Of a stretch of DNA of 64,000 bases, positions 17,582 to 17,701 are shown piece after piece. The position numbers and the translations under genes are program-made. Position 1 is the stretch's first letter. Each line of letters starts with the position of its first letter. The notes below the pieces were generated by a model that saw nothing but the letters and a program-made list of their open reading frames with translations, searched no databases and was not told the origin of the DNA. Source of the stretch: a virus (Duplodnaviria; Caudoviricetes); the IMG/VR virus record IMGVR_UViG_3300037846_000091, positions 1-64,000 of that record. The stretch is one strand, 5' to 3'.

Positions 17582-17610
17582 TTGCCCACCGCAGCCGTCC
17601 TTGCTACACT
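17582..17610 (+). promoter_or_regulatory. Promoter upstream of the tRNA half
   Basis: TTGCCC, 17 nt, TACACT, with an extended -10 TGc. Confidence 0.6.
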
Positions 17611-17660
17611 CCACCTATCCAGCAACGGATTCACACCTTGCGGTCACGGACGACCACGCG

Positions 17661-17701
17661 GCCCCTTTAGCTCAATTGGCAGAGCAGCTGACTCTTAATC
17701 A
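17661..17701 (+). tRNA. 5' half only of tRNA-Lys(CTT); probable attachment site
   Basis: GCCCCTT-TA-GCTC-AATTGGCA-GAGC-A-GCTGA-CTCTTAA-TCA, then the sequence diverges. No T-arm or 3' acceptor strand follows. It lies 128 bp upstream of the integrase. Confidence 0.85.

What the first reader, a model, noticed from the sequence alone, without database searches (positions are those of the whole stretch)
17582..17701. Attachment site carries a promoter plus the 5' half of tRNA-Lys instead of the usual 3' half
Seen: a 41-nt tRNA-Lys(CTT) 5' half stopping just past the anticodon loop (TGA-CTCTTAA-TCA symmetry), preceded by a terminator and a 17-bp-spaced promoter and followed by the integrase. Both flanks look phage-like. 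Established: most tRNA-targeting integrases carry the 3' part so the host promoter still drives the tRNA, and anticodon-loop crossover is a known sublocation. Inference: this phage integrates in the reverse sense and supplies promoter and 5' half, which puts a host tRNA-Lys under phage transcriptional control. It would also place int behind the host tRNA promoter in the lysogen.
Basis: partly seen in the sequence, partly recalled or inferred. Interest (0 to 1): 0.75.

Follow-up and report, generated by a model that had tools for sequence, protein, structure and literature searches.

The report
Phage attachment site with tRNA-Lys 5' half
A temperate phage of planctomycete bacteria carries, beside its integrase gene, the first 41 bases of the host's only tRNA-Lys(CUU) gene plus a promoter-like site, where about 66 related elements carry the last part, so it probably rebuilds the tRNA from the opposite side on integration, a rare but already known arrangement.

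Summary
Window 17661-17701 (+) equals nt 1-41 of intact tRNA-Lys(CTT) genes in 12 Planctomycetota genomes, mostly Gemmataceae. Identity starts at tRNA +1 and stops 3 nt past the anticodon loop. The record is a circular 73-kb temperate phage, both flanks are phage DNA, and it holds no other tRNA or 3' half.

The loop lies 137 nt before the integrase ORF, where relatives keep their attP core. I surveyed about 66 distinct relatives of this integrase. All carry a 3' tRNA part starting at the anticodon stem-loop, or an intact tRNA when integrated. None has a 5'-only piece, so this phage is the mirror image of its family.

The target tRNA is single-copy in Gemmataceae. Four Gemmataceae genomes hold other elements that left a 5' fragment of this same tRNA on the host promoter, with the intact gene at the far end.

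No lysogen of this phage was found, so integration and promoter activity remain inferred. The arrangement is already known: about 4% of Islander islands leave a 5' fragment, and Zhao and Williams described one in 2002. I class it as a new member of a known, rare kind. The scan also noted this stretch in a second window of the same genome.

The parts
17426..17513 (+). Terminator-like element: a long hairpin closed by a G+C stem, then a T-run. It lies after the last upstream phage ORF (17197-17421).
   Evidence: MFE -38.5 kcal/mol, z -1.1; sequence
17509..17560 (+). Candidate arm-type integrase sites on the left arm: GAACGC-type repeats, including ACGAACGCA at 17530 and AACGCCAA at 17513.
   Evidence: ACGAACGCA occurs once forward (17530) and once inverted (ending 17815) in the whole 73-kb genome.
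17582..17610 (+). Promoter-like site: TTGCCC, a 17-nt spacer ending in TGC, then TACACT. A 50-nt leader separates it from tRNA +1.
   Evidence: Not reported by the consensus scan.
17661..17701 (+). Exact 5' part (nt 1-41) of host tRNA-Lys(CTT): acceptor 5' strand, D arm, anticodon stem 5' strand, loop, and 3 nt of the 3' strand.
17689..17701 (+). Inferred attP core, TGA-CTCTTAA-TCA. The anticodon loop (17692-17698) is the likely 7-bp overlap region.
   Evidence: Position matches the start of the 3' halves in relatives. L053 carries the same 13 bp at the same distance from its int.
17702..17729 (+). Right arm next to the core. It is tRNA-like but degenerate: a possible vestige of a tRNA-Lys 3' half, and also an imperfect inverted copy of the left arm.
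   Evidence: Statistics are marginal (p 0.0016 to 0.3 depending on the test).
17804..17826 (+). Candidate arm-type sites on the right arm: inverted ACGAACGCA and direct AACGCCAA.
17847..18986 (+). Tyrosine integrase, 379 aa from the ATG at 17847, which has a GAGGA ribosome-binding site. The longest ORF starts at 17829.
20089..20367 (+). Excisionase-like HTH_17 protein.

Best explanation
Window 17509-17830 is the attP of a temperate, circular 73-kb phage whose host is probably in Gemmataceae. The integrase likely exchanges strands in the anticodon loop of the single-copy host tRNA-Lys(CUU) gene.

The phage carries nt 1-41 of that gene on the int-distal side of the core. Integration would therefore give two junctions:
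- attL: host promoter, host 5' half, then non-tRNA phage DNA and int. This is a broken tRNA.
- attR: phage left arm, phage 5' half, then host 3' half. This is an intact tRNA identical to the original, now read from the phage's promoter-like site and shielded from phage late transcription by the upstream hairpin.

Shown: the sequence identity, the family geometry, the lack of any other tRNA part, and the single-copy target. Inferred: that recombination happens here, that the promoter works, and how the arrangement arose. On origin, it is a derived state inside a clade that otherwise carries 3' halves.
For: - Exact 41/41 identity starting at tRNA +1, in 12 Planctomycetota genomes, each within an intact tRNA-Lys(CTT).
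- The loop lies 137 nt before the int ORF. In 28 distinct phage-type relatives the tRNA piece starts 82-170 nt before int, at tRNA positions 13-48, mostly 25-39. L053 has the same Lys loop 138 nt before its int.
- Integrated relatives have an intact tRNA just upstream of int on the same strand: 7 in viral and metagenome contigs and 24 of 32 loci in Planctomycetota genomes. None has a 5'-only piece.
- In the tree, this integrase groups (support 99) with two phages that carry tRNA-Phe 3' halves.
- The record has no tRNA and no 3' half anywhere.
- The target is single-copy in Gemmataceae.
- The promoter-like site resembles host tRNA-Lys promoters, and its extended form is unique in the genome.
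- An inverted 9-mer, unique in the genome, flanks the core at about -162 and +117.
- The phage has an excisionase-like gene and a LexA-type repressor gene, and the genome is circular.
- Four Gemmataceae genomes carry other elements at this tRNA with a displaced 5' fragment (nt 1-38/39) still on the host-type promoter. A tyrosine recombinase gene follows the fragment in two of them, G510 and G563. The intact gene lies 2.4-55 kb downstream behind foreign DNA in three; in G507 it is on another contig.
Against: - No attL or attR of this phage turned up in metagenome contigs.
- No integrase closer than 46-49% identity exists in 5.8 billion proteins, so no lysogen could be examined.
- The promoter matches the sigma-70 consensus at only 8/12 and has a longer leader (50 nt) than host genes (10-20 nt). 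No RNA data were available.
- The four genomic examples use unrelated integrases on the opposite strand. They show feasibility, not that this phage does it.
- The phage is known from three near-identical contigs only (99.9% identity), so conservation of the site cannot be judged.
Confidence: 0.62

Rival explanations
1. The site is a recently captured hybrid (attL-type). An ancestor with only a short core, or a decayed 3' half, integrated into tRNA-Lys. It then excised aberrantly and took the host promoter and 5' half along. On this view the 41-nt identity reflects recency rather than selection, and the present site may recombine poorly.
For: - The right arm looks like a degenerate tRNA-Lys 3' half: a T-loop-like and acceptor-like stretch, and a full-length Rfam tRNA alignment of 26.8 bits.
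- The promoter resembles host tRNA-Lys promoters.
- The sister phages target a different tRNA (Phe), so the Lys site is new in this lineage.
Against: - The 60 nt upstream of the 41-mer match none of the 12 host loci, and the leader is much longer than in hosts.
- The candidate arm-type repeats lie outside the promoter and still flank the core symmetrically.
- Disrupting the single-copy tRNA-Lys(CTT) in the ancestor would be costly.
- The statistics for the vestigial 3' half are marginal. Full-length Rfam alignments also appear for 2 of 8 control attPs that carry ordinary 3' halves.
Confidence: 0.2
2. The stretch is a relic: a decaying phage-borne tRNA-Lys gene, or a dead attachment site, with no present role in integration.
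For: No lysogen was found. The 3' portion is degenerate. ARAGORN and Rfam (at its gathering score) call no tRNA.
Against: - Neutral decay would not leave 41 of 41 positions intact beside a scrambled remainder, with the break exactly at the family's crossover sublocation.
- An intact integrase with all catalytic residues lies at the family-typical distance.
Confidence: 0.08
3. The promoter and tRNA-like stretch act mainly as RNA in the free phage. It could be a structured leader or processing signal for int mRNA, or an expressed tRNA half or decoy. Integration would use another site.
For: Positions 17661-17732 can fold into a long imperfect hairpin or a tRNA-like shape. The inverted symmetry of the arms has shuffle p 0.0016.
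Against: - The fold is barely better than shuffles (z -1.96).
- No other candidate attP is seen next to int.
- The family evidence places the core here.
Confidence: 0.05

Closest known systems
Integrative elements that recombine with the 5'-distal part of a tRNA gene. [quoted passage not shown]
   Same: The element, not the host, supplies the 5' part of the target gene, so it must also supply upstream expression signals. The displaced piece is a 5' fragment upstream of the restored gene.
   Different: Here the arrangement is seen in the free, circular phage form, in a planctomycete phage. It lies inside an integrase family that is otherwise uniformly of the 3' type. I could not read the 2002 paper (not held), so detailed comparison rests on how others cite it.
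Standard anticodon-loop attP sites of the same integrase family. Examples: L053/L052/L054 and L022 (tRNA-Lys-CTT 3' halves) and L014/L018 (tRNA-Phe 3' halves).
   Same: Same integrase family, same strand and distance of the loop relative to int, and the same sublocation. L053 shares the 13-bp TGA-CTCTTAA-TCA.
   Different: They carry loop plus 3' part on the int-proximal side. This phage carries 5' part plus loop on the int-distal side and adds a promoter-like site.
tRNA-dependent lysogeny of mycobacteriophages such as Fionnbharth (PMC10865867).
   Same: Integration at a tRNA-Lys gene in which the junction next to int does not rebuild the tRNA.
   Different: Those phages share only about 10 bp with attB and make up for the loss with a complete phage tRNA gene elsewhere. 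This phage has no complete tRNA, but has the 5' half next to the core, so the other junction would rebuild the host gene.
Islands at tRNA-Lys(CTT) in Gemmataceae genomes, found here: G510 (14.7 kb), G563 (55 kb, ICE-like), G508 (2.4-kb remnant) and G507.
   Same: Same target tRNA and same sublocation. The displaced 5' fragment sits on the host promoter, and the intact gene lies behind element DNA.
   Different: Their recombinases are unrelated to this integrase (no tblastn match to this integrase at E <= 1e-5) and lie on the opposite strand. Identity stops at tRNA nt 38/39 rather than 41. They are islands or a conjugative element, not this phage.

Membership tests
Tyrosine recombinase / phage integrase (PF00589) | Catalytic domain with conserved Arg, Lys, His-x-x-Arg, His and the Tyr nucleophile | tested here: met
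   Pfam 38.9 bits and phrog_1 E 6e-24. R218, K251, R338-H339, H360 and Y369 are invariant among 22 homologs.
tDNA-targeting attP, anticodon-loop sublocation (Williams class A) | The block of identity to a tRNA gene abuts the anticodon loop, has flanking stem symmetry, and lies next to int | tested here: met
   Identity covers nt 1-41 and ends 3 nt past the loop. The loop is 137 nt before int, as in relatives.
Reverse-polarity (5'-fragment) tDNA-integrating elements | The element carries the 5' portion of the target from position +1 to the crossover | tested here: met
   No 3' portion anywhere in the record.
Reverse-polarity (5'-fragment) tDNA-integrating elements | The element supplies a working promoter for the restored gene | tested here: inconclusive
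   A promoter-like site resembles host tRNA-Lys promoters, but the consensus scan does not report it and there are no expression data.
Reverse-polarity (5'-fragment) tDNA-integrating elements | In the integrated state, a displaced 5' fragment lies upstream of the intact tDNA with the element between them | tested here: inconclusive
   No lysogen of this phage was found. The layout is seen for other elements at the same tRNA in G510, G563 and G508; in G507 the two pieces are on separate contigs.
tRNA-dependent lysogeny (Fionnbharth type) | [quoted passage not shown] | tested here: not met
   ARAGORN, Rfam and a tRNA profile find no complete tRNA in the 73-kb record.

The most novel reading that the evidence does not exclude
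This phage may be a snapshot of how an integrase lineage flips which half of a tRNA gene it carries. The proposed route starts with a new target (Lys instead of Phe). The phage then acquires the 5' half behind a promoter in the P arm. A transient attP would hold a whole tRNA, and the now redundant 3' half decays into the present right arm. As a consequence, the only tRNA-Lys(CUU) gene of the lysogen would be expressed solely from a phage promoter, giving the prophage control over decoding of the main lysine codon of a G+C-rich host.
Probability: 0.2. Interest if true: 0.6.

Novelty: new member of a known kind. Interest (0 to 1): 0.45.

Why it matters
tRNA genes are the commonest landing sites for phages and genomic islands, and the near-universal rule is that the element brings the 3' end. 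Exceptions show what that rule depends on. Here one phage inside a large, otherwise uniform integrase family does the opposite, at a single-copy tRNA.

That makes it a clean natural test of three questions:
- Can the same integrase geometry tolerate either polarity?
- Can a prophage take over transcription of an essential host tRNA?
- How do attachment sites switch target and polarity?

There is also a practical point. Island and prophage finders that look only for 3' fragments would miss such elements or set their boundaries wrongly.

Tried and rejected
- Searches of IMG/VR for the 41-mer and for close integrase relatives gave nothing.
- The metagenome scan for the predicted attR (left arm, 41-mer, host 3' continuation) and the scan for the right junction both gave 0 hits. 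Records close to the window may have been withheld, so this is weak.
- I laid Logan contigs of two soil runs on the site. The contigs break inside the tRNA part because many soil tRNA-Lys genes share those words. Left and right arms have equal depth in one run. Nothing could be told about junctions.
- The Rfam full-length tRNA alignment of 17661-17729 (26.8 bits) first looked like proof of a vestigial 3' half. Controls with ordinary 3'-half attPs also gave full-length alignments in 2 of 8 cases. Semi-global alignment tests gave p 0.01-0.7. I keep it only as a possibility.
- A phage promoter in the left arm as a general family feature: 8 of 25 attPs have a loose match on the + strand against 5 on the - strand. 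This is not convincing.
- The attP regions of the two sister phages do not align with this one.
- I looked for an empty site for the G510 island in five related genomes. The upstream host gene lies on a different contig from tRNA-Lys there, so no clean empty site was obtained.
- Second copies of the tRNA in G413 and G638 are a duplicated contig and a contig overlap, not fragments.
- The maximum-likelihood tree did not finish in time. The FastTree result was used instead.

Full report
WHAT IS THERE

The window is the first 64 kb of a 73,014-bp IMG/VR virus record. Its first 141 bases recur at the very end, with three mismatches in the last 41 nt. This is the signature of a circular assembly with a k-mer overlap. 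Nearly all genes lie on the + strand.

The gene content is that of a temperate phage:
- ParB-like protein, replication initiator, primase-helicase, large terminase and a Mu-type portal.
- A tyrosine integrase at 17829/17847-18986.
- An excisionase-like HTH_17 gene at 20089-20367.
- A LexA-type DNA-binding protein at 27985-28428.

The DNA to the left of the site is also phage. It holds small co-directional ORFs and a 3.85-kb transposon at 13039-16890, with 17-bp inverted ends and a 9-bp target duplication. So the site is seen in the free phage form, and both flanks belong to the phage.

Positions 17661-17701 match exactly in 12 genomes among one genome each of 185,579 species. All 12 are Planctomycetota (Gemmataceae, Gemmatales, Planctomycetaceae, Kuenenia). 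In every case the match is nt 1-41 of an ARAGORN-called tRNA-Lys(CTT) gene. Identity begins at tRNA +1 and ends three bases past the anticodon loop.

The whole phage record contains no tRNA gene. A tRNA profile finds only this 5' part, and BLAST with the host 3' half finds only chance matches.

The promoter-like site is TTGCCC, a 17-nt spacer ending in TGC, then TACACT (17582-17610). By the E. coli consensus it is weak, and the scan did not report it. It does mirror the sites upstream of host tRNA-Lys genes, which read TTGCCN, a 17-nt spacer often ending in TGC, then a CATAAA-like hexamer. Its extended form is unique in the genome. The upstream hairpin with a T-run is plausible as a terminator but is not statistically remarkable.

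WHY THIS IS THE ATTACHMENT SITE

The integrase has no relative closer than 46-49% identity, but hundreds at 35-46%, all from planctomycetes. I collected relatives from three sources:
- IMG/VR: 76 loci.
- Encoding contigs.
- 401 Planctomycetota genomes: 65 genomes had hits, and 32 loci were examined.

I scanned the 500 nt upstream of each int with ARAGORN and a tRNA profile. The results were:
- Thirty phage-type loci (28 distinct) carry only a 3' tRNA part. It begins at tRNA positions 13-48 (mostly 25-39) and lies 82-170 nt before int on the same strand.
- Thirty-one loci carry an intact tRNA in that place: 7 in viral or metagenome contigs and 24 in genomes. This is the integrated state.
- Seven more genomic loci show a 3' part only.
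- One locus shows nothing.
- None shows a 5'-only piece.

Targets include Arg, Val, Gly, Pro, Met, Ala, Asn, Trp, Phe and Lys. Lys(CTT) is used in the standard polarity by L022, L032, L052-54 and L123.

In L053 the Lys loop lies 138 nt before int, and identity starts at TGA just before the loop. In this phage the loop lies 137 nt before the same reference point, and identity ends at TCA just after it. The two sites are mirror images about the same 13 bp.

In a FastTree phylogeny this integrase groups, with support 99, with two phages that carry tRNA-Phe 3' halves. The 5'-half state is therefore derived and came with a change of target.

A 9-mer, ACGAACGCA, occurs in the genome only at 17530 and, inverted, ending at 17815. 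This flanks the core in the way arm-type integrase sites do.

LIKELY MECHANISM

Strand exchange within the identity block, by family analogy in the 7-nt loop, would give two junctions.
- attL: host promoter, 5' half, then phage right arm and int.
- attR: phage left arm with its promoter-like site, 5' half, then host 3' half.

The sequence of the restored tRNA would be unchanged. The direction of int relative to the tRNA is the same as in all relatives, so 'reverse sense' is not the right description. Only the side of the core that carries tRNA sequence is swapped.

The target is single-copy in Gemmataceae. There is one match per genome in almost all of 162 genomes with a match, and the apparent doubles in G413 and G638 are assembly effects. 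Restoration of the gene should therefore be under selection. That explains why 41 of 41 positions are kept while the sequence beyond is not tRNA.

INDEPENDENT SUPPORT FOR FEASIBILITY

The same pattern search found four Gemmataceae genomes with a second, same-strand copy of the 5' part that diverges right after the loop.
- The fragment (nt 1-38/39) keeps a host-type TTGCCA/CATAAA promoter.
- A tyrosine recombinase gene follows the fragment in G510 and in G563. The G563 element also has a TraG/VirD4-like coupling protein and ParB, so it is probably conjugative. G508 holds only a 2.4-kb remnant.
- The intact tRNA-Lys(CTT) lies 14.7 kb (G510), 55 kb (G563) or 2.4 kb (G508) downstream, behind A+T-rich foreign DNA. 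In G507 it is on another contig.

These elements are unrelated to the phage. They show that the predicted lysogen layout exists at this tRNA and sublocation in the likely host family.

WHAT REMAINS OPEN

No junction of this phage was found. Only three near-identical contigs of it exist.

The right arm at 17702-17729 has a T-loop-like and an acceptor-like stretch. It also forms an imperfect palindrome with the left arm. It may be a decayed 3' half, which would suggest passage through an attP holding a whole tRNA, or capture of an attL. Controls make this only marginally significant.

COMPARISON WITH WHAT IS KNOWN

Recombination with the 5'-distal part of tRNA genes is documented but uncommon. 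PMC6563490 cites Zhao and Williams 2002 and four archaeal and viral studies for it. The Islander database counts 159 islands with a 5' fragment against 3760 with a 3' fragment (PMC4383910).

The site differs from tRNA-dependent lysogeny (PMC10865867), where the tRNA is not rebuilt and a complete phage tRNA compensates.

VERDICT

The kind is known. The specific value is a free-phage example nested in a well-sampled family of the opposite polarity.

Noticed in passing
window 13030-16899: A 3.85-kb transposon with a perfect 17-bp terminal inverted repeat (13039-13055 and 16874-16890) and a 9-bp target duplication, AGGTCGAGG. It carries a DDE_Tnp_1 transposase (14327-15436) and an HsdR_N/N6_Mtase-like gene (13207-14430). 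Removing it restores a 104-aa phage ORF.
   Followed up: partly
G510:C9:442387-457178 (L161), G563:C24:39054-94226 (L162-L164), G508:C5:7107-9534 (L165), G507 (L166, L167): Four Gemmataceae genomes hold elements in tRNA-Lys(CTT) that displaced a 5' fragment ending at the anticodon loop. The fragment keeps the host promoter, and the intact tRNA sits behind element DNA. G563's 55-kb element has a 394-aa integrase, a TraG/VirD4-like protein and ParB, so it looks like an ICE. G510's 14.7-kb island has a 546-aa recombinase with a weak PF00589 match.
   Followed up: partly
window 1-141 and record 72874-73014: A 141-bp terminal overlap with 3 mismatches near the contig end. IMG/VR classes the record as linear, but it is most likely a circular assembly.
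   Followed up: yes
integrase family (L014-L129): This planctomycete integrase family is common: 65 of 401 sampled genomes hit at E <= 1e-60. It switches tRNA target often. Lys(CTT) users fall in at least four separate places in the tree, always at the anticodon-loop sublocation.
   Followed up: partly
window 44626-49587: A 1653-aa ORF whose first ~440 residues are a Mu-type portal (PF06074). The long C-terminal extension has no family match.
   Followed up: no
L018 12470-12542 (-) and L019 2596-2668 (-): The sister phage with a tRNA-Phe 3'-half attP also carries a complete tRNA-Asn(GTT) gene 1.3 kb downstream of int, on the opposite strand.
   Followed up: no
window 17661-17732: The tRNA 5' half and the right arm form an imperfect palindrome centred on the anticodon loop (RNA fold -24.3 kcal/mol; shuffle p 0.0016 for the inverted similarity). 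It could be a core-binding symmetry or an RNA element ahead of int.
   Followed up: partly
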